A stretch of 16,937 bases of DNA from a virus. The notes beneath the pieces were generated by a model. The model saw only the letters and a program-made list of their open reading frames with translations. It had not been told where the DNA came from and made no database searches. The stretch lies in the IMG/VR virus record IMGVR_UViG_3300045988_100718. The stretch is one strand, 5' to 3'. Of the stretch, positions 1 through 16,852 are shown piece after piece. Position numbers and translations under genes: made by a program. How positions within the stretch are numbered: the stretch's first letter is position 1; every line of letters starts with the position of its first letter.

Positions 1-85
1 ATTTTTTTGTCCGGTTCGAGAGAGTAAAAAACTGGGCGCGGGGTCTTTTCCGTCGTCGGCTGTTTAAAAAACGGCGTCACCATTC
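1..85 (+). repeat. Left copy of the 85-bp direct terminal overlap
   Basis: Compared base by base with 16853-16937 and found identical. It is either a circular-assembly overlap or a short direct terminal repeat. Confidence 0.95.
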
Positions 86-796
86 CGGCCGCGAAGAAGA
101 TTGCGCGCGATCACTGCGAAGGCCAAGGGCAACGAGCTGCGCGCGTCGTTCTTCTTTCCGAGCGTCCACAAGGGCTTGCGATAGATGCAGCGCGTACCAC
201 TGCCGCACCCTCTTGCGGGTAGCGTCGTCCTTCGCCCTCTCCCACTCGATGCTGAAGCCGGGGTCAATCACCCGTACGTCATAGTCGAGCGCTATCCATT
301 CATCCATCATGCGGGGGTGCCGCTTGCTGCTGGGCGTCGTGCGCGTACACCACACGTCGATAGGTTCCGACGATATGGCGAACTGTCGGTAAGCGCCCGA
401 CCACGCCATAGCCACCGCGCGCCGCTCGGCAAGGCTGGGGCTGGTGAGGCCCATAGCGGCGGCAAGGGCGCTGAAGCTGACCACGGGGTCGCCCGCGTTC
501 TTGTGCGCGTCGATGTAGTCCACGGCCTCGCGGTCGCATGAGCCGGGCGGGACTACGATCATGTGCAGCCGAGCGCCATAGCCGTACAATACGCGATCTT
601 GCCGGGATGCGTTGCAGTGCTTGCACGCGCGACGAATATTAGGCACCGTGTCCATACCGCCATGCGAGTGCGGCACTATGTGGTCGTCTTCGGTGCCCAC
701 TCGCGTGCAGCCGGGCAGACGCAGCCAACAATCATTTCCCCATGTCTCTATGACCTTGGCCCTCACAAACGGGTCGATAGTCTGCCGTCGCCCCAT
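77..796 (-). CDS. HNH endonuclease with a C-terminal domain of about 165 aa that looks like a degenerate P-loop kinase
   Basis: HNH motif: DDHIVPHSHGG...NIRRACKHCNASR. The likely start is ATG 796 (MGRRQTIDPF), 4 nt after the stop of the upstream gene; the ORF track extends it to 850. On the circle it lies immediately upstream of terS. Confidence 0.8.
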   Translation of the reverse strand: MGRRQTIDPFVRAKVIETWGNDCWLRLPGCTRVGTEDDHIVPHSHGGMDTVPNIRRACKHCNASRQDRVLYGYGARLHMIVVPPGSCDREAVDYIDAHKNAGDPVVSFSALAAAMGLTSPSLAERRAVAMAWSGAYRQFAISSEPIDVWCTRTTPSSKRHPRMMDEWIALDYDVRVIDPGFSIEWERAKDDATRKRVRQWYALHLSQALVDARKEERRAQLVALGLRSDRAQSSSRPEW

Positions 797-800
797 ACAA

Positions 801-1007
801 TCACTTCGCCTTCTGCGTGCGCACCCACACGTCGAGGTCGCCAACCTCATACACGCAAGGGCTGTTGATGGCGTCGCCCGCCTTGAACCATATCGGCCCG
901 GTGCCGTCGCCCCTCATCCGTTCCATCTGCCTTTGCGAGACGCCGAGATAGCGCGCCGCCTGTGCCGTGGTCAACTTCGCGCGTGGATTCACTTCATACC
1001 TACCCAT
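801..1007 (-). CDS. Excisionase-family (MerR-like) HTH DNA-binding protein, candidate recombination directionality factor
   Basis: 68 aa. LTTAQAARYLGVSQRQMERMRGDGTGPIWFK...VYEVGDLDVWV matches the typical Xis/AlpA-type HTH pattern. Confidence 0.6.
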   Translation of the reverse strand: MGRYEVNPRAKLTTAQAARYLGVSQRQMERMRGDGTGPIWFKAGDAINSPCVYEVGDLDVWVRTQKAK

Positions 1008-1330
1008 GCCTTGAGCGAGTTAATCAGGTCTTCTCGGCCGAACACTTGCACGCCCGCGCGCTTGGACGGTCTGAGTACGATACCGTCCTTGATTAGCTGC
1101 TGCATAACGTGGTCGCCGGTCGGGTCGGCGGTCGGTGCGATCTGGTTCAGGTGGAGCAACTGGATAACGAGGGAACGGCTCACGGTGTCGGTGCTCACGG
1201 TGTCGTGTTCCAGTCGGGCGACGTTCCAGCGGATAGCGTCCTTGATGTCCTTGGTACGCTGAGCCTTGGTCGCCGGGGTCTGTCGTCGCGCCCTTGTCTT
1301 GGTCGGTTTGTAGCTGACTGCATAACCCAT
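989..1330 (-). CDS. Hypothetical protein with a basic N-terminus (113 aa)
   Basis: ATG at 1330 is preceded by GAGGT about 8 nt upstream (aacGAGGTaacgaaATG). The N-terminus is Lys/Arg-rich. I recognise no motif. Confidence 0.6.
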   Translation of the reverse strand: MGYAVSYKPTKTRARRQTPATKAQRTKDIKDAIRWNVARLEHDTVSTDTVSRSLVIQLLHLNQIAPTADPTGDHVMQQLIKDGIVLRPSKRAGVQVFGREDLINSLKAWVGMK

Positions 1331-1446
1331 TTCGTTACCTCGTTTCGTTCGTCTCGTTGATGTCTGCTAGGTGGTCAGGTTGGTTTTTCATGTCTCTTAA
1401 AGTGGTGGGCGGTTAGAGCGGGGAACCTAAGCGCGTGATAAAGGAA

Positions 1447-1474
1447 AGCGGCGAAGCCGCAAGGCTTCGCCGTT
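1447..1474 (-). terminator. Rho-independent terminator-like hairpin, minus orientation
   Basis: A perfect 10-bp GC-rich stem pairs 1449-1458 with 1463-1472 around a 4-nt loop. On the minus strand it is followed by CTTTCCTTTAT. Confidence 0.6.
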
Positions 1475-1799
1475 CCGCTATCCGCAAGGTTCACCACGCG
1501 ATCGCAAAAGCTCTTAAAGCGGAGCCACGGCCGTCGCATAGGTCAGCGGCCCGAAGACCGCGCGCAAGGTCACGACAAGAGGCCCGCCACGTATGACGGT
1601 GCTGCACCCTGTTGCGCCCTGACAATGCGCCCCAAGTCGTTCAGTAATCCCGCATGGCGTGCCGTCGCCGTCTTAACCACCGCACCACATGCGGCGTGTT
1701 TGTAACGCGCTGGGCAAGGCGCGCTAGGGTCCTTTTTCGCGTGCTACGGCTTACCTAGGGTCGTTCACCGATTGCGGCACATTCAGTTATCGGGGTCGC

Positions 1800-1976
1800 C
1801 TACTGTCTTCGGCGCGCCACGTCGTCGTTTGTCAAGGCGTCGTTGATTGACGCCCTGAGCTGTTCGAGCTGAGGCCGTGTGAACACTTGCCTTGTGCAAA
1901 TGTCGCCACTGTCGGCCCGAAGCTCGAAAATTCCGGGATATTCCGGGTTGTTAGCCACCCAAGCTCGGGAACTCAT
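1800..1976 (-). CDS. Hypothetical small protein (58 aa), below the ORF-track cutoff
   Basis: Hand translation: MSSRAWVANNPEYPGIFELRADSGDICTRQVFTRPQLEQLRASINDALTNDDVARRRQ. Its ATG overlaps the upstream stop as ATGA (1973-1976). Confidence 0.5.
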   Translation of the reverse strand: MSSRAWVANNPEYPGIFELRADSGDICTRQVFTRPQLEQLRASINDALTNDDVARRRQ

Positions 1977-2119
1977 AACTGCACCTTCATTGTGATAGGC
2001 CCCTTACCGCCGATGCCGGCGATACCCATAGCCGCCTTGGCTAGACATGAGGCAAGAAACATGAACAGAAACGCCAACAGGGCGAAAGGCGCGGCCAACA
2101 CGCTTCTAACGATCTTCAT
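1973..2119 (-). CDS. Tiny predicted lipoprotein (48 aa), below the ORF-track cutoff
   Basis: Hand translation: MKIVRSVLAAPFALLAFLFMFLASCLAKAAMGIAGIGGKGPITMKVQL. It has a charged n-region, a hydrophobic core and a canonical lipobox L-A-S-C (Cys25). GGAAGG lies about 10 nt upstream of the ATG. Confidence 0.6.
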   Translation of the reverse strand: MKIVRSVLAAPFALLAFLFMFLASCLAKAAMGIAGIGGKGPITMKVQL

Positions 2120-2148
2120 TGTCACCGCCCTTCCACCGAAGCGACTTC

Positions 2149-2433
2149 TCATAGTGCATGATCGGCCTTGCGGTAAGCGCCCACGAACGTCCAGCCGTCA
2201 CGCGGCATGAACAGGTCGAAGGCGTCGGCCCCACGCCTCACGCCGTACTCGCCCTTCTGAAGCACCGGGCGGCAATCCTCGGTGATAGCGATAACCACGG
2301 CCGTGACAATCGAATGGCCGTCGTTGTACGTCACCAAGTCGCCCGCGATCAGGTCGGCCGCGCGCGTCACCGGCGTGTAATTCACCGGCACCGGCTTATA
2401 TTCCATAGCCGTCGTCTGTCGTCTACCGAACAT
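2149..2433 (-). CDS. Hypothetical protein (94 aa)
   Basis: ATG 2433 is preceded by GAGGA 8 nt upstream. It overlaps the stop of the cro-like gene by 11 nt. I recognise no motif. Confidence 0.55.
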   Translation of the reverse strand: MFGRRQTTAMEYKPVPVNYTPVTRAADLIAGDLVTYNDGHSIVTAVVIAITEDCRPVLQKGEYGVRRGADAFDLFMPRDGWTFVGAYRKADHAL

Positions 2434-2662
2434 TTTGCGGTTCCTCGATTCTGCCGGCTAGGTAGTCCACCGACGTATCTAGTTGGTCGGCAATGCATAC
2501 AAGGTCTTTCAGGGTGAACGGCCGATGACCGTGCATTTTGTTTGAAAAAGTCTGTTCCGCCATGCCGATTGCTTCGGCTAGTTCGCGCTGTTTCACCTTG
2601 CGGCGGCGCAAGAGGCGTCTAATCCGTTTTGGACTAACGCCGGGGTCTGTCTCTAAACTCAT
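2423..2662 (-). CDS. Xre-family HTH protein, cro-like by position
   Basis: KQRELAEAIGMAEQTFSNKMHG is a typical HTH_3 pattern. The gene is divergent from the repressor-like gene and is the first gene of the long minus-strand transcription unit. Confidence 0.75.
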   Translation of the reverse strand: MSLETDPGVSPKRIRRLLRRRKVKQRELAEAIGMAEQTFSNKMHGHRPFTLKDLVCIADQLDTSVDYLAGRIEEPQNVR

Positions 2663-2669
2663 ACATTAA

Positions 2670-2698
2670 GTTATAGCTAAACGTATCCGTTTGGGCAA
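2670..2698 (-). promoter_or_regulatory. Candidate lytic promoter giving a leaderless cro-like mRNA
   Basis: On the minus strand: TTGCCC (2698-2693), a 17-nt spacer, TATAAC (2675-2670), 7 nt, then ATG at 2662. Confidence 0.5.
2679..2692. promoter_or_regulatory. Candidate operator palindrome AAACG-TATC-CGTTT
   Basis: A 5-4-5 inverted repeat sits inside the 17-nt spacer of the candidate lytic promoter. Related half-sites TAAACG occur at 2678-2683 and 2730-2735. ATCCGTTT recurs at 2622-2629 and 2685-2692, each copy followed by GG within 1 nt. Confidence 0.35.
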
Positions 2699-2720
2699 GC
2701 TGGATAGAAATACCGGCGTG

Positions 2721-2755: not shown

Positions 2756-3199
2756 ATGACGACAGCACTAGCAACGCCACCGGCAGGGCGCACTTCTTCG
2801 TGCGACGTGGCGATAAACAACATAAACATGATTCTTGCCGTCTTGCATATACCCAAGAAGGAAGTAGCCGAAGCGCTCGGCAAGATGCCCCAATCGTTCT
2901 CTAGGATGCTGAAGAACGGCTATCAATGGACTTTTGACGACATGCTAGAAGTGTCGGATATTCTGCAAGTCGGGCTAGATGATCTGACTAATCCCGACTT
3001 GACACCGAACAGGGTTATTGAAGCCCGCGCGAAGAATGGGGGTTACAACGTCGCCGTTGATGGCGACGGTCGAATACGGTGGGGCATGGCCGGACTGTTG
3101 GGCGTCCTTGGGTGGTCTCATAACCCAGAGGTCACAAGTTCAAATCTTGTCCCCGCTACCAATATCAAGCCGTCACGGCGTTACACCGTGACGGCTTGA
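2756..3199 (+). CDS. Xre-type HTH repressor-like protein (147 aa) whose 3' end reads through the attP/tRNA fragment
   Basis: The HTH is IPKKEVAEALGKMPQSFSRMLKNG. The gene is divergent from the cro-like gene, with int immediately downstream and co-oriented. Codons about 121-136 (SHNPEVTSSNLVPATN) are encoded by the tRNA-derived segment. Confidence 0.7.
   Translation: MTTALATPPAGRTSSCDVAINNINMILAVLHIPKKEVAEALGKMPQSFSRMLKNGYQWTFDDMLEVSDILQVGLDDLTNPDLTPNRVIEARAKNGGYNVAVDGDGRIRWGMAGLLGVLGWSHNPEVTSSNLVPATNIKPSRRYTVTA
3117..3161 (+). other. attP core candidate: the 3' 45 nt of a tRNA-Met(CAU) gene, initiator-like, from anticodon loop to CCA
   Basis: Elements in order: CTCATAA anticodon loop (CAT at 3119-3121), CCCAG, AGGTC variable region, T arm ACAAG-TTCAAAT-CTTGT, acceptor strand CCCCGCT, discriminator A, then CCA (3159-3161). 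No D arm or 5' anticodon stem lies upstream. The triple C after the loop and the CCCCGC acceptor strand resemble bacterial initiator tRNA. Confidence 0.8.
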
Positions 3200-4050
3200 T
3201 GCGTTTTGGGCATGGTGGGCGTATGTCCAAGAAGATAAATGCGCCGCCGGTGTGGCGCGAAGAAATAACCCAGTATCTCGATGTTCTGAAGGCGGGCGGT
3301 CAGTCCAAGGGCACTCTAACGACGCGGCGGTGCCAACTGTCGCAGATGGCACGCGATCTTCAAGGCGTGCCCGCTGATGTGAGCGACGACGCGCTTGTGT
3401 CGTGGTTCGCCCGGCATGAGTGGAAACCGGAAACGCGCAAGAGCTATCGCAATGCCGTTACCGGCTTCTTTTCGTGGCTGCATACCACCGGACGCGCGGC
3501 AGCTAATCCAGCCGAAGCGCTGCCAAGCGTCCGACGTCCGCACGCGCACCCGCGCCCTTGTCCGGATAGCGTGATTCTAGCGGCGCTAGGGCGTGCGAAC
3601 GCGGCGGAACGCACCATGATTAGGTTGGCGGCCGAAGCGGGCCTAAGAAGGGCCGAAATAGCGGCCGTACACAGTCGTGATGTGATGCGCGATCTTGTCG
3701 GCCGGTCGCTGATAGTGCGCGGCAAAGGCGACAAGCAGCGGATAGTGCCTATTTCTGACGAACTAGCCGACACGATCACCGCCGCCGATGGCTACGTGTT
3801 TCCCGGCCGATGGTCGGGACACGCCGAAGCGTCCTATATCGGCAAGCACCTTAGCCGCCTTCTTGGCGACGGTTGGACGCCTCATAGTCTGCGCCACCGG
3901 TACGCGACGGCTACGTACCGGGCCACCAACGATCTGTTCCTAGTGTCCAAGCTGCTAGGCCATGACAGTGTAGAGACGACGCAACGCTATGTTGCGATGC
4001 CCGAAGACAGATTGCGGGCGGCGCTTGACGACGTGGCGCTTGTGATATGA
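3199..4050 (+). CDS. int: Small tyrosine recombinase / phage integrase, XerC/D-like, with no obvious arm-binding domain
   Basis: Catalytic-type motifs: GLRRAEIAAV (Arg), VRGKGDKQRIVPI (Lys), HSLRHRYAT (His-x-x-Arg), LLGHDSVETTQRY (His, Tyr). ATG 3199 overlaps the upstream stop as TGATG. Alternative starts are TTG 3196 and ATG 3223. Confidence 0.9.
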   Translation: MRFGHGGRMSKKINAPPVWREEITQYLDVLKAGGQSKGTLTTRRCQLSQMARDLQGVPADVSDDALVSWFARHEWKPETRKSYRNAVTGFFSWLHTTGRAAANPAEALPSVRRPHAHPRPCPDSVILAALGRANAAERTMIRLAAEAGLRRAEIAAVHSRDVMRDLVGRSLIVRGKGDKQRIVPISDELADTITAADGYVFPGRWSGHAEASYIGKHLSRLLGDGWTPHSLRHRYATATYRATNDLFLVSKLLGHDSVETTQRYVAMPEDRLRAALDDVALVI

Positions 4051-4053
4051 CAA

Positions 4054-4091: not shown

Positions 4092-4349
4092 CTAGTTGGC
4101 GTGCTTCGCGCGCGATTTCGGGGTAATGGGGTTGTCCTTCCACCACGCCCACATGGCCGCGCCGACGTTCCACAACAGGGCGACTAGCTGATTGATTGTG
4201 TCGTCCGCGACGGGGATTGTGTCAACGCCGAACATGACAAGTGCGGCGTTGGTCAGGCCGAGCAAGAGCACGACGAAACGCGCGATGGTCGCGGCGCTGA
4301 TACCGGGCGTGCGCGGGTCGCCGCCTTCCACCTGTTCCTCGTTATCCAT
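4092..4349 (-). CDS. Holin (85 aa, two hydrophobic helices)
   Basis: The two helices are IARFVVLLLGLTNAALVMFGV and LVALLWNVGAAMWAWWKDNPIT. The WWK(D/N)N motif is typical of a Gram-positive phage holin family. The gene lies directly downstream of the endolysin. Confidence 0.75.
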   Translation of the reverse strand: MDNEEQVEGGDPRTPGISAATIARFVVLLLGLTNAALVMFGVDTIPVADDTINQLVALLWNVGAAMWAWWKDNPITPKSRAKHAN

Positions 4350-4351
4350 GT

Positions 4352-5251
4352 TTAGCCTTCCTTCTCGGTCTTGCTGGTCGCGGTCACGTTGATTTCGAGC
4401 GCGTCCAGTTTTGCTTTCACGGCGGTTTCAACGGTTTTGGCGACATCGGCGGGGTTGCTGCCGAGCGCCTTGGAGAGCGCTTCGATCGCCGCCGCCTGAG
4501 CGGTGATTGTCGCGGTCATCTCACGCACGCGCTTGTCGATGTAGCACACGCGCGTGTAGATGTCGCCTCTGCTGCCGTCCTTGGTGCCGCCATCGTCCGT
4601 GCGGCTCAGCAGCGCGTACAGTCGCGCGGTGTCCTTGTGCATCCAGCTCAGTCGCACCCAAGCGGGTTGATTGTCCTTGCCGGGGGTGCCCTCGGCACCG
4701 ATTCCGTAGTTCCAAACGTCTCCGGCGCTTGTCATGTTGTTACCTCCCAATATCTCGTTGGCTTTATTGATTACAAAGTTCACGTCAAGGCCGTTCACGG
4801 CCTTGTCTGGGCACCCGTAGTGGTCTGTGCCGGGTATCTCCCGGTGCAGCCACACGTTGCCGTTGCGCCCGTCGTGCCACAAGCGGCCCCAGCCTTGACG
4901 TCGCGCGATCTCGGCGCACAGGCGGGCCGAAGCGTCCATGCACGCGCGCGTGCAAGGCACGCCGGCCATGCCGCCTTCGTGCTCGATGCTCACTGTGCTG
5001 TTGTTGCTCTCATAGTTCGCGTCGCTCCAACTGCCGTCGCTCTCGCTCACGTACTGGTGTATCTCGCCGTGGCCGCCGATGCCGTAGTGGGCCGAAGCGC
5101 CTCCGGCGCGTTGGAAAACGCTGTCGGTGCCGTTCAGATAGCCGACCATGATGTGCAAGGTGATATGGCTTATGGCGTAGCCGTTGCGCCCGTCGTAGTG
5201 GTTCGGGCTGCCCACCCATTTGATGGCGCTCACACTCTTGTCTCCTTTCAT
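4352..5251 (-). CDS. Endolysin: N-acetylmuramoyl-L-alanine amidase (PGRP/Amidase_2-like) with a C-terminal domain of unknown type
   Basis: ISHITLHIMVG...ASAHYGIG..GEIHQYV...STVSIEHEG fits the Amidase_2 pattern. An alternative start, GTG 5233, is preceded by AAAGGAG at 6-nt spacing and may be the true start. Confidence 0.8.
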   Translation of the reverse strand: MKGDKSVSAIKWVGSPNHYDGRNGYAISHITLHIMVGYLNGTDSVFQRAGGASAHYGIGGHGEIHQYVSESDGSWSDANYESNNSTVSIEHEGGMAGVPCTRACMDASARLCAEIARRQGWGRLWHDGRNGNVWLHREIPGTDHYGCPDKAVNGLDVNFVINKANEILGGNNMTSAGDVWNYGIGAEGTPGKDNQPAWVRLSWMHKDTARLYALLSRTDDGGTKDGSRGDIYTRVCYIDKRVREMTATITAQAAAIEALSKALGSNPADVAKTVETAVKAKLDALEINVTATSKTEKEG

Positions 5252-5259
5252 TTTGTTGG

Positions 5260-5496
5260 TCAGTCGTGGTCGAACAGGTCGGCCGGCGGTTCTGGCGGCG
5301 GCGGGCCTAGGCCCTTGTAGATGTGGTCAACCAACGCGCGGTTCCATTGCCACAGACGTTGGTTGTCGGCTTGCATCTCTTGCGCCATCCTGTACGCCTC
5401 CAACCGGTTCTTGGCCGCGTTGAACAACTGGGACACGACGGCACCGCCGATGGTGCCGCCCATGCCAACCAGCGCGATAATCACGCCCTCGCTCAT
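5260..5496 (-). CDS. Small membrane protein (78 aa): N-terminal TM helix, coiled region and Pro-rich tail. Possible second holin, antiholin or lysis accessory protein
   Basis: MSEGVIIALVGMGGTIGGAVVSQLF... The ATG overlaps the upstream stop as ATGA (5493-5496). The 130-aa track ORF is an upstream over-extension. Confidence 0.55.
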   Translation of the reverse strand: MSEGVIIALVGMGGTIGGAVVSQLFNAAKNRLEAYRMAQEMQADNQRLWQWNRALVDHIYKGLGPPPPEPPADLFDHD

Positions 5497-6059
5497 ATGA
5501 TCGAGTTCTTTCTCGTGCCGATTACCTGAGTGATTGTCAAGACGTCTGTTCTGGTTCCCTGATTGCTGTTGCACACGTTCGCTTCGCCGGTAATCCATTT
5601 GTCGGCGGAAGGTGAATATGTGTTGATGGTTTTTCCGGTGATCTTGTAGCACCGGTTCTTCAAAAAGAAGGAAGAGGTTTCTTCGAAGTACGATGTGGTC
5701 AGGCTGATTGCCTTTCCGTTCGGGTTCACGACGTCCATGCTGCCGAAAACGTTGTCATTGCTTCGGAAACAAATCGTCAATCGCTCGAAGTTCGCCGCGC
5801 TTTCAGAGAGCGTGATGGCACCTGCGAAGGGTGTGTTGTCGTTGTCGTACAACACCACGGTGTTGCCCCTGATGGCGTCCAACTGTTTTTCGACGGCGGC
5901 CATGCGGGCGGTGAGCTTGTTTGGGTCGGTGCCGTCGTAGTCGAAGCCGGCCAATGCTTCGTCGATGCCTTCGGCCTGTTGCTTGATGATGTCAGGTAGC
6001 TCGCGCACTTGGTCGCTGTCACTGGGATAGGGAAGACGGTAACGCTTCGTTGTCTCCAT
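5493..6059 (-). CDS. Tail fibre / receptor-binding protein candidate (188 aa)
   Basis: The N-terminal YRLPYPSDSD..V..LPD.I resembles the conserved N-termini of actinophage minor tail and fibre proteins. It is the last tail gene. AAAGGA lies 6 nt upstream of the ATG. The C-terminal two-thirds has visibly lower GC. Confidence 0.55.
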   Translation of the reverse strand: METTKRYRLPYPSDSDQVRELPDIIKQQAEGIDEALAGFDYDGTDPNKLTARMAAVEKQLDAIRGNTVVLYDNDNTPFAGAITLSESAANFERLTICFRSNDNVFGSMDVVNPNGKAISLTTSYFEETSSFFLKNRCYKITGKTINTYSPSADKWITGEANVCNSNQGTRTDVLTITQVIGTRKNSII

Positions 6060-7569
6060 CGTTCGTCCTTTCTTTGCTCATTGCCATTGCCTTGCTTGCG
6101 GCCGCCGGTGGTGCCCCGGTCTTGGTGACATGCCGAAGCGCGCCCAGAATCCAGTCGGCCTCTTTGAACGTGGCCGTCGATGTGAGTTTCTTCATGTCGG
6201 CGCACGTCGGTTTGCCGGTTTTCAGGTTGCGTGCGGGCCAGACGCGCACGCGGTGCGTCCACCGGCTTTTCTTGCCGGCCACGTCGTAGGTGAGGGTGCC
6301 GCCGATCACGCACCACGCGCCGGTGGTGGCCGGCGCGCTGGCGTCGAACCGGCTGCCGGGGAACAGGTACACTTCGGGCCGGCAATACATGTGGCGCTGC
6401 TCCATCTTGTCGCCCCTGAACGTGAGTTCCGGCAAGCGAACACGGTTGTTGCTTTCAGCCAGAGCTGCCACGGCTCTTGACATGTCGATGCTTGCGGCGC
6501 TGCTGGCCGAATTGGTGGGGTATTCCGTCCAGTCGGCCTCGATGCTCAGACAGGTTTCGCCGTTGCGGGTCTGCGTGGCGATCTGGGCCACTCGGCTGCC
6601 ATCGTAGTTGAACTCATACATGGTGGCGGCCTGTTCCTGTTCGGCGGCGGTCGCGCCGGGATTCGTCAATCCTCGGTGCGCGTATTTCATTTCGACTTGG
6701 GTGTAATAGTCTGATGCGCTATCCAACGTGGGGTCGGCGTCGATGATGATACGTGACGCTGCCGGGGTTTGGTAGTCGTCGTTTATGGTGGTTGACCCGT
6801 CACCCAGCACGATGGTGGGGCCGGTAAGTATCACGTCGGTATTCCAGAAGGCACGTATATCGCGGAACTGTGGCACTTTTGCGGCGCTGGCGTCTTGATA
6901 GGACATGTAAAACATGCGGTCGACCTCGAAGCTGTATTTGCCGTCGATCCGTCTCGTTACCTTGCGTTCGCAGAAGTCCATGAAACTGTGCCGGTCGCTG
7001 GCCTTCGGCGGCGTCGAAAACGTGTTGTAGGTGATGTCGTAGGCGGGGATGCCGTCGAAGTTAAGCCATCGTCTCAGCGTGGCGTCCACGGTGCCCTGTA
7101 ACCACCATTGGAAGCCGCGCGCGGCCTGCGCGTCGGTGCCGTCGTTAGGCCCCTTGCGGCAGTCGGTGCGAAGGATGTAGATACGGTCTGAGGCGGTGAG
7201 CTTGATACGGTTTCGCCCGCCGTCGTGGTCGAGCATCTGCACGTCTGTCACGTATCCGTCGAACAGGGCGTAGCACAAGGGACTTTCGTTGTAGGTGCCC
7301 TGTAGCTCCCACGCCGGCCGGACGGTGAGCCGGTGGCCCATAAGACCGTTGGCGGACTTGGAATAACGGCCGCCCTGATCTATCAAGGTGATGTTCAGGA
7401 CGGCCGGGTTGGTTTCATCCCACGGCTTCTCCACGCCCCACTCGATTGTGAACGGTGACAAGGGCACAAGATCGTCGCTGCCGTCCTGTGCCTCGGGCAG
7501 TTGGCGGAGGTCAAGGAAGATGTGGCAGCCCTCCGGCAGTGGGTTGCTCCATTTGCTCACGCCCCTCAT
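6019..7569 (-). CDS. Minor tail protein (516 aa), distal-tail/tail-tip type by position
   Basis: It lies immediately downstream of the tape measure with an ATGA overlap (7566-7569). Size and position fit a Dit/Tal-like protein. I recognise no enzymatic motif. Confidence 0.6.
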   Translation of the reverse strand: MRGVSKWSNPLPEGCHIFLDLRQLPEAQDGSDDLVPLSPFTIEWGVEKPWDETNPAVLNITLIDQGGRYSKSANGLMGHRLTVRPAWELQGTYNESPLCYALFDGYVTDVQMLDHDGGRNRIKLTASDRIYILRTDCRKGPNDGTDAQAARGFQWWLQGTVDATLRRWLNFDGIPAYDITYNTFSTPPKASDRHSFMDFCERKVTRRIDGKYSFEVDRMFYMSYQDASAAKVPQFRDIRAFWNTDVILTGPTIVLGDGSTTINDDYQTPAASRIIIDADPTLDSASDYYTQVEMKYAHRGLTNPGATAAEQEQAATMYEFNYDGSRVAQIATQTRNGETCLSIEADWTEYPTNSASSAASIDMSRAVAALAESNNRVRLPELTFRGDKMEQRHMYCRPEVYLFPGSRFDASAPATTGAWCVIGGTLTYDVAGKKSRWTHRVRVWPARNLKTGKPTCADMKKLTSTATFKEADWILGALRHVTKTGAPPAAASKAMAMSKERTNDGDNEALPSSLSQ

Positions 7570-9651: not shown

Positions 9652-9655
9652 TTGC

Positions 9656-10063: not shown

Positions 10064-10066
10064 ACG

Positions 10067-10486: not shown

Positions 10487-10502
10487 GATTGTTTCCTTTC
10501 GG

Positions 10503-10883
10503 TTAGTCTTCGGTTAGTTCCAAGGGGTTAAGGATCAGTTCGTAGGCCGCGAGGTTGCCCACGCCGGCCAGCGAATAGGTGACGGGCTTCGCGCTTCGCA
10601 TGTTCACCTTGCGCGCCCAGAGTCTTTCGACCACGGGTGTGATGATGTCCAACGCTTGCACCTGTGTGGCGGTGGTGCCGGCGATCACGTTCACAGTCCA
10701 GATGCGCTCTTGGAACTGGTAGCCCTCGAACGTGATCGTCGGCGGGTCGATCAGCATAACGGCCTTGCCGGGCAATGGCCGGGCCTCTTGAGCGTCGATG
10801 GTCACGGCGGCCACGAGGTCTCCGGCGGCGTCGGTGAGCAAGTCCATAAGGGCTTCGCGCTCCTCGCGCACGCTCACGGTCAT
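10503..10883 (-). CDS. Head-tail joining or tail terminator-like protein (126 aa)
   Basis: The start MTVSVREERE overlaps the upstream stop as ATGA (10880-10883). The 179-aa track ORF is an over-extension. The call is by position. Confidence 0.5.
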   Translation of the reverse strand: MTVSVREEREALMDLLTDAAGDLVAAVTIDAQEARPLPGKAVMLIDPPTITFEGYQFQERIWTVNVIAGTTATQVQALDIITPVVERLWARKVNMRSAKPVTYSLAGVGNLAAYELILNPLELTED

Positions 10884-11227
10884 GCGATCACCAGCCCGCC
10901 CGTGGGCACGCCGACCGCGTTCAGTTTCGGCCAGACCGATCTGAGCGGGTCGGTGCTGATGCGGTATGGTTCCACCGTGCCGTCGCCCACGTCCATCACG
11001 CCCAATCGGGCGTCGCGGGCGTTGTACAGGTCGGCGGCGCATGACGTGATGCAGTCGGCGCGCACGGTGTCCGCCACCGTGTGCCCGTCTATCGCGCTGT
11101 CCACGTAGCTGATGGCGCTGGTGATGGCGCGTTGCACTCGGTCGGCGTCGCCGGCCGGGACTCCGATTTCGTCACGCACCGACGCTTCGTATTTTTTCCA
11201 GTCCATCAAGGCTGTGACTCCTTTCAT
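10880..11227 (-). CDS. Head-tail connector/adaptor protein (gp6-like)
   Basis: It is the first gene after the head module. RVQRAITSAISYVDSAI is a connector-like pattern. The start may instead be TTG 11209 or ATG 11206, both downstream of an AAAGGAG. Confidence 0.55.
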   Translation of the reverse strand: MKGVTALMDWKKYEASVRDEIGVPAGDADRVQRAITSAISYVDSAIDGHTVADTVRADCITSCAADLYNARDARLGVMDVGDGTVEPYRISTDPLRSVWPKLNAVGVPTGGLVIA

Positions 11228-11263: not shown

Positions 11264-12124
11264 TTAGTCGATTTTGTACAGGCGGGGAGTGACTGTCGCG
11301 TTGACTGGGCCGGTGGCAGCGGTCGTGAAGATGCGCGCGGCCCACGTCTCGGTGCTGGCGACTGTGAACGCTCCGGTCTGCTGGTTGCTGGCGTCGCCGG
11401 CCGGGTTGAGCATGGCGACGTTGATGCCCGTGCCGGTAATGTTGGGGACTAGGTAATAGTCGCCGGGGTGGAGGGTGATTGAGCTGGCCCACGCGGTCCA
11501 GCCGGTCGCCTTGCCGGTGGCGGTGTATGAGCCGTCCTCAGAGGCGGTGAGGGTCACGCCGTTTTTTGTCTCACCGTGGATGGCGGGCCACAGGTTCGCT
11601 AGCTCATAGCCCCCCCCCCCAAGGCTCGTGTTATCTGGTTTCATCCAATCGTGCGCGGTGTCGCCGGATTCCAACTGGACTCGGAGGTCGCCGTTCTTCT
11701 CGGTGGGTGTGGCCTCGGTGGCGAGGATTTCGAAGCGCAGGCTGACGGTGCCGGCTGGGACTGTCCCGGCATTACCCGTGTTAATCTGGGCACCCAGTTG
11801 ACCACCTTTGGCGTCAAGGCATTTGACGGAGACGGTCAGACCGTCGATACTGGTGGGCCTGCTCAATGTCACGGCACCATGTACCGGGCAGGGGAACGTC
11901 CATCGAATGCCCGCCCACTGGCTTGAGGCGGTGCCCTTGACGTGCAGCGAGCCGTCACTGTTAACGGTGGCGGTCAAACCGTTGCCCGACGCGGGGCCAT
12001 AAGACAACAGGTTACGGGAGAGCACTGTGACGGGCACGACGGTTTTTACCGCTGGATTGACGGTGCTGGATATCGTCACGTCGGTTTTTCCCGGTTGTTT
12101 CCCGGTGATGGTGATGGTGGTCAT
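11264..12124 (-). CDS. Ig-like (C-terminal half of a Big_2 domain) plus two tandem CBM-like/jelly-roll-like repeats. Candidate capsid decoration or adhesin protein
   Basis: TTITITGKQPGKTDVTISSTVNPAVKTVVPVTV fits the last strands of Big_2. Two internally similar blocks follow: NGLTATVNSDGSLHVKGTASSQWAGIRW...RVQLESGDTAHDWMKP and NGVTLTASEDGSYTATGKATGWTAWAS...TVTPRLYK. Confidence 0.6.
   Translation of the reverse strand: MTTITITGKQPGKTDVTISSTVNPAVKTVVPVTVLSRNLLSYGPASGNGLTATVNSDGSLHVKGTASSQWAGIRWTFPCPVHGAVTLSRPTSIDGLTVSVKCLDAKGGQLGAQINTGNAGTVPAGTVSLRFEILATEATPTEKNGDLRVQLESGDTAHDWMKPDNTSLGGGGYELANLWPAIHGETKNGVTLTASEDGSYTATGKATGWTAWASSITLHPGDYYLVPNITGTGINVAMLNPAGDASNQQTGAFTVASTETWAARIFTTAATGPVNATVTPRLYKID
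11610..11620 (-). repeat. G11 homopolymer (C11 on the plus strand) inside the Ig/CBM gene
   Basis: Counted directly. It encodes SLGGGGYE, between the two CBM-like repeats. Confidence 0.95.
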
Positions 12125-12279
12125 TGGATCACCTCGATGTCGATAAGGTCGGTGCCGGCAGTGGTGGCGGTCACGGTCTGTGGCGCTGTGTCTGGTGTGA
12201 TTGTGGTTTTGATTTTTGCGGTTCTGCCCGCGGTGACGGTTAGACTATCCGGTGTGGCGCTGAGTCCCGTGGGCGTCAT
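12121..12279 (-). CDS. 52-aa ORF encoding the N-terminal half of a Big_2 Ig-like domain, below the ORF-track cutoff
   Basis: Hand translation: MTPTGLSATPDSLTVTAGRTAKIKTTITPDTAPQTVTATTAGTDLIDIEVIQ. It has ATGA overlaps with the capsid stop (12276-12279) and with the next ORF start (12121-12124). Confidence 0.5.
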   Translation of the reverse strand: MTPTGLSATPDSLTVTAGRTAKIKTTITPDTAPQTVTATTAGTDLIDIEVIQ

Positions 12280-15033: not shown

Positions 15034-15050
15034 GTACCGCCAAGTACCGC
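15011..15050. repeat. 10-bp tandem repeat, three exact copies (caagtaccgc) plus one degenerate copy (caatcaccgc)
   Basis: Read directly at 15021-15050, with the degenerate unit at 15011-15020. It starts 2 nt after the terL stop. Confidence 0.9.
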
Positions 15051-15052
15051 CG

Positions 15053-16498
15053 TCAGAAGATCTGCAGCGGCCCGGCCTCTTCGGGCCTGTGCGCCGCTCC
15101 CCACGCGGCCAACATGCACGATTCCAGCGGCGACGTGAGGCCCGTGGAGCCGCGGCGACTCACGCGCCATGCGTCGCCCGCCCACTTGCGCGCCGAGTTG
15201 GCCGCGCTAGCGTCAAGGTCGGCGTCGGCCGCGTGCCATATCGCACCGTTGGTCAGGCCGCTCACGTAGCTTTGCCCGACGGTGAGGTAGTCGGCCGCTT
15301 CCATGTCCACGAACACAAGCGCGGGGTCGCCGTCGCTGTCGGTCATATGGCGCAAGCGGTCGGATAGGTCGGCGGCGGTTCCACGGTTGTCGATCACCAC
15401 CGGCGCGCCATAGATGGCGCACAGACGACGTAGCTCTTCGGGCGCGTAGCCGGTGCCGTCCAGTATCTTCAGCAGCTGCGTGGTGATGGTGCCGTCCGGG
15501 TTGCAGATTCCGGCGCTGATGCTGGTGTGGGTAGAATCTACGTCCACGGCTGCACCGAAAACCACCGGCCTATCGTTCAGGTCGGCGGGGCTTATGGGCG
15601 CGGTGACTGTCTGCGCCCACGTCGCTTCATCTATGGCGCGGTCGGTTATGCCTTCGTCGCGCCTGTTGCCGAAGGCGCGCGCCCAACCGGCCGGATTGCC
15701 CTTGAATTGCTCGTGGAAGTCCACTAGCTGCGATCTGTCCCACAAAAGCCCCGCCGCTGGATGATGGATCATGATGGCGTCGAGGTCTTCGGGGTCGGCG
15801 TCGGCCGGAAGGCCGAAGTCGAACCAACATGTGCGCCGGGATTGCTCGCCCGCGCGGCAAGCGTCAAGACGGCGGTTGAAGAACGTCGATTCGGCCGTGC
15901 CTTCGGTGCTGGTAATCCAAAGTTGCGGCTGCACGCCCGTGGCCTTAAGGCGCGTCGCCATCGTGGGCATGAAGCCGTCGAGGATGGTATTACCGGTTTC
16001 CTCACTGAGGCTAAACGCTTCGTCCAGAGTGATCTTGTCGCCCTGTACTCCGTGGCCCGCCACCTTCGTCACGCTCTTGGGCATGATAACGGAGCCGTTG
16101 GCGAACGGTTGGCGAAGGTCGCCCGCGCCCAAGTACGGCCGTGTGGTGATGGCCGACAAGGGCGATGCCTGTATGGTCTTCAGGTATTTTTTAAAGTGGT
16201 CGCCCGCGTCCTTGCCGGTCTGAGCCAAGTAGTAGATGAAGCGGTTAGGCCCCCACTGCGAATTACGGGTATCCACCGCGTCCACAAGCGTGGATTTTCC
16301 GCACTGACGCGGCGTGGAAAGAATCACCGTGTCATAGTAGTAGGTGCCGGTATCGGGGTCGATTTCGCCCGCCACGTCGGCAACCATTCTTTGCCACGGC
16401 AATAGCGGCGTGCCGAGCAACCGCGCGAACTTGGCGACTATGGGGCCGTCCGTCTTCCGGTCGGGGTTGCGCGGGGTGCCGCCGCGTACCGGCGTCAT
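15053..16498 (-). CDS. terL: Terminase large subunit
   Basis: The Walker A motif is STPRQCGKSTLV, with a nuclease-type C-terminal half. The start ATG 16498 overlaps the terS stop as ATGA. The track ORF to 16582 is an over-extension. Confidence 0.9.
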   Translation of the reverse strand: MTPVRGGTPRNPDRKTDGPIVAKFARLLGTPLLPWQRMVADVAGEIDPDTGTYYYDTVILSTPRQCGKSTLVDAVDTRNSQWGPNRFIYYLAQTGKDAGDHFKKYLKTIQASPLSAITTRPYLGAGDLRQPFANGSVIMPKSVTKVAGHGVQGDKITLDEAFSLSEETGNTILDGFMPTMATRLKATGVQPQLWITSTEGTAESTFFNRRLDACRAGEQSRRTCWFDFGLPADADPEDLDAIMIHHPAAGLLWDRSQLVDFHEQFKGNPAGWARAFGNRRDEGITDRAIDEATWAQTVTAPISPADLNDRPVVFGAAVDVDSTHTSISAGICNPDGTITTQLLKILDGTGYAPEELRRLCAIYGAPVVIDNRGTAADLSDRLRHMTDSDGDPALVFVDMEAADYLTVGQSYVSGLTNGAIWHAADADLDASAANSARKWAGDAWRVSRRGSTGLTSPLESCMLAAWGAAHRPEEAGPLQIF

Positions 16499-16800
16499 GC
16501 CTTCGCCTCTTGCAGCAATCCGGCAAGGGCGGGGTCGATTTCCTTTTGCGCCGGGAACTTGGTTTCTAGTTCCTGATACCACGCCAATAGCTGCGCCATG
16601 ACGCGCGACGTGTCGCGGCCCTTGGCGTTCAGGGCGTCGAAGTTGCGCGCGATATTGATCATGGTCTTGCAGATATACCGGGCGCTGGGGTTCAGGGTAC
16701 GGCCTTCCATGAAACTGTCGATAAGTTCCTTCGTGGCGCGTTCCTGTAGGCCATCGTTGGGGCCGTAGTAGTCCTCGAATCCTTCTAGCGTCATTTGCAT
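16495..16800 (-). CDS. Terminase small subunit candidate (101 aa)
   Basis: It lies immediately upstream of terL and is translationally coupled to it. GAGGTG sits 6 nt upstream of the ATG. It is small and helical. The call is by position only. Confidence 0.55.
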   Translation of the reverse strand: MQMTLEGFEDYYGPNDGLQERATKELIDSFMEGRTLNPSARYICKTMINIARNFDALNAKGRDTSRVMAQLLAWYQELETKFPAQKEIDPALAGLLQEAKA

Positions 16801-16852
16801 TCGTTCACCTCTTCTTGTTGCTTGTTTTCGTTGGTATTCCGCCGTTTTCTAG

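What the first reader, a model, noticed from the sequence alone, without database searches (positions are those of the whole stretch)
1..16852. Near-minimal temperate tailed phage with no replication or recombination genes
The closed 16,852-bp unit carries the following:
- a full virion and lysis gene set
- an integrase, a two-HTH switch, an Xis-like HTH and an HNH endonuclease
- about five tiny proteins of unknown function

I could not recognise a DNA polymerase, primase, helicase, initiator, SSB, recombinase or antiterminator. The protease and capsid are fused, the tail tip is reduced to one large protein plus a 188-aa fibre, and eight gene junctions are ATGA overlaps.

Lytic actinophages of about 15-17 kb with protease-capsid fusions are known. 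A temperate, tRNA-integrating version of that minimal layout is unusual. It raises the question of how the DNA is replicated after induction: entirely by host functions, or in situ before excision.
Basis: partly seen in the sequence, partly recalled or inferred. Interest (0 to 1): 0.7.

Follow-up and report, generated by a model that had tools for sequence, protein, structure and literature searches.

The report
Tiny temperate bifidophage with ornate RNA
This is a complete 16.9-kb temperate tailed phage of Bifidobacterium of a kind already described; it has no replication gene, not even the small initiator that some of its tiny cousins carry, and its only large gene-free gap holds an apparently undescribed ~400-base pseudoknotted RNA conserved in more than 80 related phages.

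Summary
The 16,852-bp unit is closed: an independent contig with a different breakpoint matches it with 0 mismatches. It carries a full virion and lysis set, an integrase, a repressor/Cro pair, an Xis-like HTH and an HNH protein. No replication, recombination or antiterminator gene was found by Pfam, PHROGs or structure prediction. It is not a fragment: four Bifidobacterium genomes carry att-bounded relatives of 16.96-17.78 kb at tRNA-Met.

The claim of unusualness is overstated. Mavrich et al. 2018 described ~18-kb tRNA-Met bifidoprophages (Bb423phi2, 689b-1, like Bl-1) with integration-dependent immunity. Temperate Gordonia CW/DM phages and Curtobacterium phage Barebow share the layout.

Two points are new. 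First, some tiny cousins (Barebow gp21, Arthrobacter Elkhorn gp23) do encode O-like/DnaD-like initiators, and this phage has none. Second, its only large non-coding gap (469 nt, window 1331-1799) encodes a ~400-nt RNA on the minus strand. I counted 66 pairs in 13 helices, including two pseudoknots, with 90.5% paired against 73% in shuffles (0/500). It has no Rfam match and occurs once per genome in 84/84 relatives.

I infer (p≈0.35) that it is the cis element that starts host-driven replication. Antitermination or a trans-acting role are live rivals.

The parts
1..85 (.). Terminal overlap, identical to 16853-16937. It closes the 16,852-bp circle and lies in the HNH-TerS spacer where a cos site is expected.
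   Evidence: independent closure by L002
77..796 (-). HNH endonuclease (residues 1-70) fused to a polynucleotide-kinase-like P-loop fold with a decayed Walker A (VPPGSCDRE).
   Evidence: Pfam HNH 5e-7. AF2 pLDDT 89.6 with Foldseek hits to T4 Pnk, Pnkp1 and adenylate kinases. Alignment A3 shows intact GPPxAGKS/T in distant homologues. Gordonia Jeanie gp27 has the same HNH+AAA_33 architecture.
801..1007 (-). 68-aa HTH_17 (MerR/excisionase-like) protein, candidate Xis.
   Evidence: Gene calls with a PF12728 hit in L001-L004; 67-89% identical in prophages
989..1330 (-). gp113: disordered arginine/lysine-rich N-terminal tail (residues 1-21), a long helix, then a winged-helix domain. It always follows the RNA.
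   Evidence: AF2 pLDDT 84.6; only weak wHTH matches; narrow family of 30 representatives; no Pfam or PHROG hit
1400..1792 (-). Conserved ~400-nt structured RNA with 13 helices, including pseudoknots PK1 (1758-1754/1728-1724) and PK2 (1617-1612/1567-1562). Contains the invariant single-stranded UUACAAACAC.
   Evidence: no Rfam match; one copy in each of 84 loci
1800..2433 (-). Three small early genes of unknown function: gp94 (2149-2433), gp59 membrane protein (1973-2152) and gp58 (1800-1976).
   Evidence: No family or PDB match; gp58 and gp59 conserved in prophages
2423..2662 (-). Cro-like HTH, first gene of the leftward operon. Promoter -35 at 2698-2693 and -10 at 2675-2670, with the ATG 7 nt after the -10 (probably leaderless).
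   Evidence: PF07022 3e-8, phrog_4583 7e-13; sequence read
2756..3199 (+). Immunity repressor (HTH) whose 3' end runs through attP. Promoter at 2721-2749.
   Evidence: HTH_26 and phrog_4583, both weak; promoter scan 10/12; C-terminus differs between circular and integrated forms
3113..3161 (+). attP core: the 3' part of initiator-type tRNA-Met(CAU) including CCA, followed by hairpin 3164-3200.
   Evidence: Sequence. L003 attL rebuilds a full tRNA CGCGGGG...CTACCA. The attR side carries the host tRNA 3' end.
3223..4050 (+). Tyrosine integrase, 275 aa, with no arm-binding domain.
   Evidence: PF00589 3.7e-19, phrog_1 1.9e-32; 275-aa gene call
4092..5496 (-). Lysis cassette: 78-aa membrane protein (5260-5496), amidase endolysin (4352-5251) and SPP1-type holin (4092-4349).
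   Evidence: PF01510 8.6e-16, PF04688 5.7e-17
5493..11227 (-). Tail and connector module: connector (10880-11227), gp126, major tail protein (10067-10486) and gp10-like/Neck1 (9656-10063). Then the chaperone (9289-9651) with a -1 frameshift at 9313-9319 extending to 9122, tape measure (7566-9125), tip protein (6019-7602) and fibre (5493-6059).
   Evidence: PHROG hits; HK97-gp10; frameshift
11264..12279 (-). gp52 and gp286, a variable cassette downstream of the capsid gene. The C-terminal ~300 nt is swapped between near-identical phages.
   Evidence: phrog_35081 8e-68; blastn against L001; different gene calls in L001, L005 and L006
12276..16800 (-). Packaging and head module: TerS-like (16495-16800), TerL (15053-16498), portal (13843-14943) and the protease-scaffold-capsid fusion (12276-13853).
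   Evidence: PF04860 8e-68, PF04586 + PF25209; phrog_9; 33-35% identity to Barebow and cluster EE fusion proteins

Best explanation
**Shown.**
- This is a complete, currently mobile temperate siphovirus of Bifidobacterium, of the Bb423phi2/689b-1/Bl-1 type.
- The 16,852-bp circle integrates through an armless tyrosine integrase into the 3' half of an initiator-type tRNA-Met gene. attP sits inside the repressor gene, so integration changes the repressor's C-terminus (integration-dependent immunity).
- Everything else lies on the other strand, arranged as if it were one ~15.5-kb leftward transcription unit starting at the Cro promoter.
- The phage encodes no initiator, helicase loader, helicase, primase, polymerase, SSB or recombinase. 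Related tiny phages (Barebow, Arthrobacter cluster AN) do carry an O-like/DnaD-like initiator in the same early interval.
- The only large gene-free stretch encodes a ~400-nt, multiply pseudoknotted RNA on the operon strand. A winged-helix protein with an arginine-rich tail (gp113) always follows it.

**Inferred.** DNA synthesis is carried out entirely by host enzymes. The RNA element is the cis-acting start signal, as either of two things:
- a folded transcript that forms a primer or R-loop, working like ColE1 RNA II;
- the equivalent structured single strand that recruits host primase or RNA polymerase.

gp113 would be a possible accessory. I put about 0.35 on this replication role. I put about 0.9 on the identity and anatomy, and about 0.95 on the RNA being a real structured element.
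For: **Identity and completeness.**
- The circle was closed twice independently.
- Integrated copies of the same phage (L001, L003) rebuild a full tRNA-Met.
- Four genomic prophages are bounded by 29-40-nt repeats at tRNA-Met, 16,959-17,778 bp apart.
- The layout matches PMC6109161.
- Rebuilt viral-form repressors of L012 and L013 end in LAA.

**No replication genes.**

**Cousins have initiators.** Elkhorn gp23 hits phrog_8540 'replication initiation O-like' at 5e-103. Barebow gp21 hits phrog_4707/270/428/186/345 at 1e-12 to 2e-7.

**The RNA is real.**
- The gap is 469 nt in a genome that is 94% coding.
- 66 pairs in 13 helices are 90.5% paired, against 73.2±0.7 in shuffles (0/500).
- 46 pairs show changes on both sides, against 32.7±2.1 (0/500). 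Slid controls give 38-44%.
- The 5' domain on 52 distinct sequences is 94.6% paired.
- G-U cells number 146 against 25 A-C cells, which fixes the strand.
- There is exactly one hit per genome in 84/84 loci.
- Distant relatives keep a 405-452-nt gap, and L101 and L099 are still detected.

**Where an origin could sit.** The other non-coding stretches are at most 163 nt. DnaA boxes are not enriched.
Against: - There is no direct evidence that replication starts in this region. No transcript ends, R-loop, RNase H site or antisense regulator has been shown.
- To my knowledge, RNA-primed ColE1-type origins are not known in Actinobacteria or in tailed phages.
- The link between lacking an initiator and having the RNA is imperfect. 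Gordonia CW phage Jeanie and Rhodococcus RRH1 show no recognisable initiator and no large gap.
- The RNA lies between the early and late genes, and gp113 has an arginine-rich tail. Both fit a transcription-antitermination role equally well.
- Mavrich et al. saw no excision or copy-number rise of Bb423phi2 after mitomycin C.
- The tentative third pseudoknot is weakened in the window's own lineage.
Confidence: 0.55

Rival explanations
1. The RNA is a cis-acting transcription element. It would be a processive antitermination or late-switch device, working like HK022 put or the Bacillus EAR element, or like lambda nut with gp113 as an N-like arginine-rich partner. It would let RNA polymerase that started at the Cro promoter read through ~13 kb of late genes. 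Replication would then start somewhere else, by an unknown host-dependent route.
For: - The RNA sits inside a long one-strand gene array, between the early genes and gp113-Xis-HNH-TerS-structural genes. From my own knowledge, EAR likewise sits between genes of a ~16-kb operon.
- The order RNA then gp113 mirrors nutL then N.
- gp113 residues 8-27 (KPTKTRARRQTPATKAQRTK) are disordered, basic and conserved.
- No protein antiterminator was found.
- In cluster EE phages the syntenic 509-705-nt gap follows a conserved TAGAAT -10-like box, so it may be the leader of the rightward operon.
Against: - At ~400 nt with at least two pseudoknots, it is several times larger than put (~70 nt) or EAR (~120 nt).
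- It has no Rfam match to any antitermination family.
- The consensus scan finds no intrinsic-terminator-like site on the minus strand within 4092-16800 that would need overriding.
- The terminator-like hairpin inside the RNA is followed by a U tract in only 17 of 73 variants.
Confidence: 0.3
2. The RNA is a trans-acting ornate RNA in the manner of the phage-associated GOLLD and ROOL RNAs. It would be a particle, decoy or ribozyme serving anti-defence, host takeover or another role unrelated to replication or transcription of the phage genome.
For: - Large, highly structured, pseudoknotted RNAs of unknown function are known from phages and prophages (PMC12286853, listed).
- The invariant 17-nt single-stranded block CAGCGCGUUACAAACAC suggests a binding or active site.
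- There is one copy per genome, under strong purifying selection.
Against: - No promoter or terminator of its own was found.
- It has a fixed position and fixed neighbours, unlike what I recall for GOLLD and ROOL.
- It is carried by the most space-limited tailed phages known, which argues for a core life-cycle function.
- It has no sequence or structure match to the GOLLD, ROOL, OLE, HEARO or raiA models.
Confidence: 0.2
3. The element is not an autonomous phage. It would be a decaying or domesticated prophage copied only with the chromosome, or one that is amplified in situ or with a helper. On this view no origin is needed and the RNA has nothing to do with replication.
For: - Bl-1 and 689b-1 were first classed as cryptic.
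- Bb423phi2 showed no excision and host-level copy number after mitomycin C (PMC6109161).
- No replication genes were found.
Against: - All virion, lysis and packaging genes are intact across more than 80 variants that differ by up to ~50% in nucleotide sequence.
- Excised circular forms were assembled from gut metagenomes alongside integrated forms of the same phage.
- Relatives sit in five Bifidobacterium species and use at least two different tRNA-Met genes, so they move.
- Phages with integration-dependent immunity are typically not mitomycin-inducible (PMC6109161).
Confidence: 0.1

Closest known systems
Bifidobacterium breve prophages Bb423phi2 and 689b-1, and B. longum Bl-1 (Mavrich et al. 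2018, PMC6109161)
   Same: About 17-18 kb and 61% G+C, integrated at the 3' end of tRNA-Met. The integrase sits at attL and the repressor at attR, with attP inside the repressor gene. Content is mostly structural genes. The host-side att sequence in L001 (…AACATGGTTCAAATCCATGCCCCGCTAC) closely matches the published att site.
   Different: The window is the excised circular form, 16,852 bp against 18.2 kb. Its viral-form repressor ends in TVTA, not an LAA-type tag. I could not align it directly to those prophages because they are not in the searchable collections. In the passages I searched, that paper mentions neither the RNA nor the lack of an initiator.
Curtobacterium phage Barebow (PQ868957) and Microbacterium cluster EE phages (Orlajensenviridae)
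   Same: Genomes of 17-18 kb with the closest capsid-protease fusion proteins (33-35% identity). They share gene order and an HTH-HNH pair before the terminase. Barebow also has a tyrosine integrase and a divergent HTH pair. EE phages keep a 509-705-nt gene-free gap at the same position, with three short motifs in the same order as in this RNA.
   Different: Barebow carries an O-like/DnaD-like initiator (gp21) where this phage has small genes plus the RNA. EE phages are lytic. Neither the covariance model R1 nor nhmmer detects the RNA in them.
Integration-dependent immunity of mycobacteriophages BPs, Brujita and Charlie (Broussard et al. 2013, as cited in PMC6109161)
   Same: attP lies within the repressor ORF, the tyrosine integrase is armless, and the repressor's C-terminus differs between viral and prophage forms. 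Relatives L012 and L013 gain an LAA tag in the viral form.
   Different: The window's own viral-form C-terminus is not a canonical ssrA-like tag, and nothing has been tested experimentally.
ColE1 RNA II pre-primer, a protein-independent RNA-primed origin
   Same: A several-hundred-nucleotide folded transcript in a replicon that encodes no initiator. Its structure is under selection.
   Different: There is no sequence or structural homology. No antisense RNA I, RNase H site or Pol I dependence is known here, and the host phylum and replicon type differ. This is an analogy of mechanism only.
GOLLD, ROOL, OLE and HEARO large ornate bacterial and phage RNAs; put and EAR antitermination RNAs
   Same: The first group shares the size class, pseudoknots and phage association. 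The second shares a position inside a long operon.
   Different: No Rfam covariance model matches, even at E<=10 on the 491-nt region. Position and neighbours are fixed here.

Membership tests
tRNA-Met-integrated ~18-kb bifidoprophages (Bb423phi2/689b-1 type) | Bifidobacterium host, about 17-18 kb, bounded by att repeats at the 3' end of a tRNA-Met gene | tested here: met
   Homologues are in Bifidobacterium genomes. Prophages of 16,959-17,778 bp lie between 29-40-nt repeats at tRNA-Met. The window attP is the tRNA-Met 3' part. L100 sits beside metA.
tRNA-Met-integrated ~18-kb bifidoprophages (Bb423phi2/689b-1 type) | Nucleotide or protein identity to Bb423phi2 or 689b-1 themselves | not testable with these tools
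   Those prophage sequences are not in the phage, plasmid or locus collections I could reach. Only the published att site could be compared, and it matches the host side of L001.
Integration-dependent immunity systems | attP located inside the 3' end of the repressor ORF, so that integration changes the C-terminus | tested here: met
   The repressor spans 2756-3199 and the core 3113-3161. The circular form ends …NIKPSRRYTVTA and the integrated form (L001) reads …EEHGSNPCPATNVV….
Integration-dependent immunity systems | ssrA-like (LAA-type) degradation tag on the viral form only | tested here: inconclusive
   Met in relatives: the rebuilt viral forms of L012 and L013 end in FTLAA and AFILAA. 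The window form ends in TVTA.
Integration-dependent immunity systems | Tyrosine integrase lacking the arm-binding N-terminal domain | tested here: met
   The protein is 275 aa, and only PF00589 and the phrog_1 core region match.
Small-genome actinophages with protease-scaffold-capsid fusion (clusters EE, AN, CW and others) | Genome under 20 kb, a single ORF with an S78 protease and an HK97-type capsid, and an HNH gene beside the terminase | tested here: met
   PF04586 + PF25209 in a 525-aa ORF; 33-35% identity to annotated fusion proteins; TerL related to CW, AN and RRH1 phages.
Lambda O-like / DnaD-like phage replication initiators | A protein matching initiator profiles (HTH_36, DnaD_N, or PHROG replication-initiation families) | tested here: not met
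   No ORF of the window matches, and tblastn with Barebow gp21 and Elkhorn gp23 finds nothing. hhalign of gp113 against Barebow gp21 gives probability 0.4%. Positive controls do match.
Known large or regulatory RNA families in Rfam 15 (GOLLD, ROOL, OLE, HEARO, raiA, EAR, tmRNA, RNase P, group I/II introns, riboswitches) | Covariance-model match at or near the gathering score | tested here: not met
   The best hits are chance-level: 25 bits against a gathering score of 84, 18.7 against 62, and 13.7 against 70. ARAGORN finds no tRNA or tmRNA.
ColE1-type RNA-primed origin | Pre-primer transcript processed by RNase H at the origin, an antisense copy-control RNA, and Pol I dependence | not testable with these tools
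   This needs transcript mapping and genetics. Only the general resemblance is shown: a folded several-hundred-nucleotide RNA in a replicon without an initiator.
Lambda N / nut antitermination | Arginine-rich peptide binding a boxB hairpin next to boxA, with Nus-factor dependence | tested here: inconclusive
   gp113 has a conserved basic disordered tail. No boxA/boxB was identified, and gp113 has a folded wHTH body unlike what I recall of N.

The most novel reading that the evidence does not exclude
The ~400-nt pseudoknotted RNA is a new class of phage RNA that stands in for a protein initiator. It would be a transcribed, structure-dependent origin (primer or R-loop, or a single-strand initiation site) that lets a tailed dsDNA phage replicate with host enzymes alone. 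A distant version may occupy the syntenic gap of the cultured lytic Microbacterium cluster EE phages.
Probability: 0.3. Interest if true: 0.9.

Novelty: new variant of a known kind. Interest (0 to 1): 0.66.

Why it matters
**The phage.** Tiny tailed phages set the lower bound of what a tailed dsDNA virus must encode. This analysis shows the lineage has dropped even the one small initiator gene that some sister lineages keep. It still spends about 2.4% of a 94%-coding genome on a single elaborate RNA.

**The RNA.**
- If it starts replication, it would be, to my knowledge, the first RNA- or structure-based origin in a tailed phage. It would also explain how such genomes can be so small.
- If it is instead an antitermination device or an ornate trans-acting RNA, it is still a new large structured RNA class. 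It comes with more than 80 natural variants, two covariation-proven pseudoknots and a fixed protein partner.

**Practical value.**
- It occurs in abundant human-gut Bifidobacterium phages.
- Possible relatives are cultured SEA-PHAGES isolates, so the question can be tested directly.
- The analysis also corrects annotations. Barebow gp21 and Elkhorn gp23 are O-like initiators, and the 'polynucleotide kinase' of cluster CW is an HNH-kinase fusion.

Tried and rejected
- **DnaA-box origin.** TTRTCCACA with up to one mismatch gives 6 hits against 4.1 expected, so rejected. Some relatives do have a perfect TTATCCACA just 3' of the RNA.
- **Attenuator or riboswitch with an intrinsic terminator.** The best terminator-like hairpin of the window is inside the RNA. 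A hairpin plus U tract is present in only 17 of 73 variants, so this is weakened.
- **Hidden ORF in the gap.** No frame is conserved, indels are not in multiples of three, and substitutions are pairwise compensatory, so rejected.
- **Pseudogene of an O-like initiator.** tblastn finds nothing.
- **gp113 as a minimised initiator.** hhalign against Barebow gp21 and Quaker gp23 gives probability below 1%. Foldseek gives only generic winged-helix hits at E>=0.1. This is unresolved, with no support.
- **HNH C-terminal domain as a hidden initiator or helicase.** It has a nucleotide/polynucleotide-kinase fold with a decayed P-loop, so rejected.
- **Homology of the RNA to the cluster EE gap.** nhmmer and model R1 find nothing. 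Four EE sequences give too little covariation. Only three ordered short motifs, including a 13-mer identical to one RNA subtype, are shared, so this is kept as a lead.
- **Alternative closing helix.** UAACU (5' motif) pairing with GGUUA competes with the local extension of P4 and cannot be separated by covariation.
- **Third pseudoknot.** P5 loop GCGGGG pairing with CCCCGC has two compensatory lineages. The window lineage lacks the G run, and many variants can pair the run locally, so it is reported as tentative.
- **Target of the invariant UUACAAACAC within the genome.** No enriched complement was found.
- **Structure-aware MAFFT** was not installed.
- **Single-sequence folding energy** is only modestly better than shuffles, z = -1.9. 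The case rests on covariation.

Full report

The window's first 85 bases are identical to its last 85, giving a unit of 16,852 bp. Closure does not depend on this one assembly. Looking up the capsid protein returned contig L002 (ENA, 16,907 bp), which has a 55-nt terminal overlap and a breakpoint inside attP. After rotation it matches the window unit with 0 mismatches. L004 also runs straight across the repressor-integrase junction. Contigs L001 and L003 are the integrated form of the same phage. One end rebuilds a complete initiator-type tRNA-Met (CGCGGGG…CTACCA) from host 5' and phage 3' halves. The other end carries the repressor gene followed by the host's own tRNA 3' end. So the same phage is seen both excised and integrated in human gut samples.

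A scan of reference genomes found five prophage relatives, in B. vansinderenii, B. reuteri, B. saguini, B. cebidarum and B. callitrichidarum. In four of them, a 29-40-nt direct repeat of the tRNA-Met 3' end bounds an element of 16,959, 17,044, 17,778 or 17,714 bp. The 'fragment of a larger phage' refutation therefore fails.

**2. Gene content**

Pfam and PHROGs, together with the gene calls on sister contigs, give the following minus-strand array:
- Packaging and head: TerS-like, TerL, portal, and an S78 protease-capsid fusion.
- A variable gp52/gp286 cassette.
- Tail: connector, gp126, major tail protein, gp10-like, chaperone, tape measure, tip protein and a 188-aa fibre. The chaperone has a canonical -1 slippery site CCCUUUC, and its extension ends at the tape-measure start.
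- Lysis: a small membrane protein, an amidase and an SPP1 holin.

The early part of the same strand holds, in order: Cro-like HTH, gp94, gp59 (membrane), gp58, a 469-nt gap, gp113, a 68-aa HTH_17 (Xis-like), and a 239-aa HNH protein.

On the other strand are the repressor and a 275-aa armless tyrosine integrase. The two promoters are back to back, and both genes start 6-7 nt after their -10 boxes.

Seven or eight junctions are ATGA overlaps, and coding density is about 94%.

**3. Are replication genes hidden?**

No ORF matches any replication, recombination or antitermination family.
- **HNH protein.** It folds with pLDDT 89.6 into an HNH domain plus a P-loop kinase fold. The closest structures are T4 polynucleotide kinase, Pnkp1 and adenylate kinases. 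Distant homologues keep GPPxAGKS/T, but this lineage reads VPPGSCDRE. Gordonia phage Jeanie's 'polynucleotide kinase' has the same HNH+AAA_33 architecture.
- **gp113.** It folds with pLDDT 84.6 into a disordered basic tail, a long helix and a winged helix. It gives only generic wHTH matches and belongs to a narrow family.
- **gp94 and gp58.** Neither matches anything.

Related tiny phages are not all devoid of initiators. Arthrobacter Elkhorn gp23 (annotated only as HTH) hits 'replication initiation O-like' at 5e-103. Curtobacterium Barebow gp21 ('hypothetical') hits five initiator or DnaD-like PHROGs (weak HTH_36/DnaD_N). These genes lie between the Cro-like gene and the Xis-like HTH/HNH pair. 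The window has no trace of such a gene. Absence of an initiator is therefore a real, lineage-specific trait. It appears to be shared with cluster EE, and probably with CW and RRH1.

**4. What is already known**

PMC6109161 describes Bb423phi2 (18,221 bp) and 689b-1 (18,260 bp) at tRNA-Met, 'similar to Bl-1'. The paper reports:
- about 30 gene families, mostly structural;
- an integrase at attL and a repressor at attR;
- an ssrA-like tag only on the reconstructed viral repressor, that is, integration-dependent immunity;
- lytic RRH1 and cluster AN, and temperate cluster CW, as phages of similar size;
- no excision or copy-number rise after mitomycin C.

PMC7302621 notes that all small-genome actinophages share the protease-scaffold-capsid fusion.

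I rebuilt the viral-form repressors of two genomic relatives, and they end in …FTLAA and …AFILAA. The window's ends in …TVTA.

None of the passages I searched in these papers mentions replication strategy or a non-coding RNA.

**5. The overlooked feature: a large structured RNA**

The gap 1331-1799 is the only long non-coding stretch. Aligned with five prophages, it is as conserved as the flanking genes, with invariant blocks and no conserved reading frame.

*How widespread it is.* A 26-nt pattern from the gap retrieved 78 IMG/VR contigs, mostly 16-18 kb. That gave 75 distinct versions down to 47% identity.

*Covariation.*
- RNAalifold on 25 representatives predicted 54 pairs, 34 of them with compensatory double changes.
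- A curated structure of 66 pairs in 13 helices is 90.5% paired, against 73.2±0.7% in column shuffles (0/500). It has 46 pairs with changes on both sides, against 32.7±2.1 (0/500). Its covariation score is 0.437 against 0.156, and slid controls give 38-44%.

*Pseudoknots.*
- PK1: the loop of hairpin P2 pairs with the segment abutting P3. It is 100% paired, with GC/CG and CG/AU/GC exchanges.
- PK2: the P7 loop GCGCAA pairs with UUGCGC downstream of the P6 three-way junction. Variants GACGAA/UUCGUC, GCGGAA/UUCCGC and GCGGUU/AACCGC all maintain pairing.
- A third long-range pairing (P5 loop GCGGGG with CCCCGC) has two compensatory lineages, but it is weakened in the window's own lineage.

*Strand.* G-U cells outnumber A-C cells 146 to 25, so the folded strand is the window's minus strand, the sense strand of the early operon.

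*Distribution.*
- A covariance model of the 5' domain finds exactly one copy in each of 84 loci, at 73-134 bits.
- It detects a distant relative strongly (L101, 119 bits) and another weakly (L099, E=1.7e-4).
- All three distant relatives examined keep a 405-452-nt gap before the gp113-like gene.

*Not a known family.* Rfam 15 has no match, even at E<=10 on the region alone. Full-text searches found no description.

**6. Cluster EE**

Microbacterium EE phages of two genera keep a 509-705-nt gene-free gap at the same syntenic position, upstream of a small unknown gene, an HTH and the HNH.

That gap has conserved blocks, including CGA(U/A)AAC(C/U)GAA, CCUGGCUCCG and AACC…CACC. These occur in the same order as the corresponding motifs of the bifidophage RNA. 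The first motif in Quaker is a 13-mer identical to the one in one bifidophage RNA subtype.

However, nhmmer and the covariance model do not connect the two, and four sequences give too little covariation. I treat this as a lead.

**7. How it most likely works**

*Shown:* the anatomy, the integration site and both integration states, the absence of recognisable replication proteins, and the existence, strand and fold elements of the RNA.

*Inferred:* host enzymes replicate the DNA. A replicon must have a cis-acting start. The RNA region is by far the largest non-coding element, DnaA boxes are not enriched, and selection acts on single-strand structure rather than on duplex sequence alone. I therefore favour (p≈0.35) a transcribed, structure-dependent origin. 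That could be an RNA pre-primer or R-loop working like ColE1 RNA II, or a structured single-strand initiation site, possibly assisted by gp113.

*Rivals:*
- **A put/EAR/nut-like antitermination or late-switch element, with the arginine-rich gp113 as partner (p≈0.3).** Position and gene order support it. Its size and the lack of downstream terminators count against it.
- **A trans-acting ornate RNA of another function (p≈0.2).**
- **A non-autonomous element (p≈0.1).** Intact genes across deep divergence, excised circles and use of different tRNA-Met genes argue against this.

An attenuator with an intrinsic terminator is disfavoured.

**8. Verdict**

The follow-up adds a specific loss of the initiator relative to sister lineages, and a previously unreported ~400-nt pseudoknotted RNA at the heart of the early operon.

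Noticed in passing
window 1-85 / 16853-16937: The assembly overlap falls in the ~130-nt spacer between HNH and the TerS-like gene, where the cos site of HNH-dependent packaging is expected (0.8% of the genome). This may be coincidence, or the contig ends may reflect real physical ends. L002, with a different breakpoint, argues for a simple circular or concatemeric assembly.
   Followed up: partly
window 11264-11560 (3' part of gp286); L001 8410-8850: The C-terminal ~300 nt of gp286 is replaced by unrelated sequence in otherwise ~99% identical phages, giving 175+116 aa in L001, 136 aa in L005 and 174+97 aa in L006. This may correspond to the recombinase-less invertible or variable locus that Mavrich et al. 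noted in Bb423phi2 against 689b-1. Their 8-bp site CAGGGTTA occurs only at 3010 in the window.
   Followed up: partly
window 77-796 (residues ~78-92): The Walker A motif of the kinase-like domain is intact (GPPxAGKS/T) in distant homologues. It has decayed independently in two clades, to VPPGSCDRE here and GPPGA-DL elsewhere, while the fold and C-terminal motifs stay conserved. This suggests a non-catalytic role next to HNH and the terminase.
   Followed up: partly
L012 3642-4235 and L013 3860-4519 (opposite strand to the early operon): Prophage relatives carry a reverse-oriented 197-219-aa gene with an N-terminal membrane helix, inserted among the early genes. These are likely moron, superinfection-exclusion or defence cargo. 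The window lacks it.
   Followed up: no
L076, L077, L079 (A2 columns ~485-495); L016 and L017 nearly so: Several relatives have a perfect DnaA-box consensus, TTATCCACA, immediately 3' of the RNA. The window has no such box there.
   Followed up: partly
L094 (Barebow) 15968-16738; L098 (Elkhorn) 14113-14781: Genes deposited as 'hypothetical protein' and 'HTH DNA binding domain protein' match O-like/DnaD-like replication-initiator profiles (1e-12 and 5e-103). The annotation could be upgraded.
   Followed up: yes
L094 (Barebow) 13469-14386 and 3104-3373: Barebow carries an AbiJ_NTD4-domain gene next to its integrase (Pfam 6.7e-18). It also has a gene annotated as a cyclic-nucleotide sequestering protein between the portal and capsid genes. 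Both are defence or counter-defence cargo in an 18-kb genome.
   Followed up: no
window 3113-3161 vs MW202675.1 51970-52017: The only near-identical DNA match in the phage collection is this 49-nt tRNA-Met fragment in an unrelated 61-kb Caudoviricetes contig from Manatee Spring (93.9%). That is presumably another phage using a tRNA-Met attachment site.
   Followed up: no
L010 9822-9914: ARAGORN calls a 93-nt tRNA-Pro(GGG) inside the portal-capsid coding region of the B. vansinderenii prophage. It is probably a false positive.
   Followed up: no
window 2663-2755: The divergent repressor and cro promoters lie back to back, with -35 boxes 22 nt apart, in a 93-nt switch region. Both genes start 6-7 nt after their -10 hexamers, which implies leaderless mRNAs.
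   Followed up: partly
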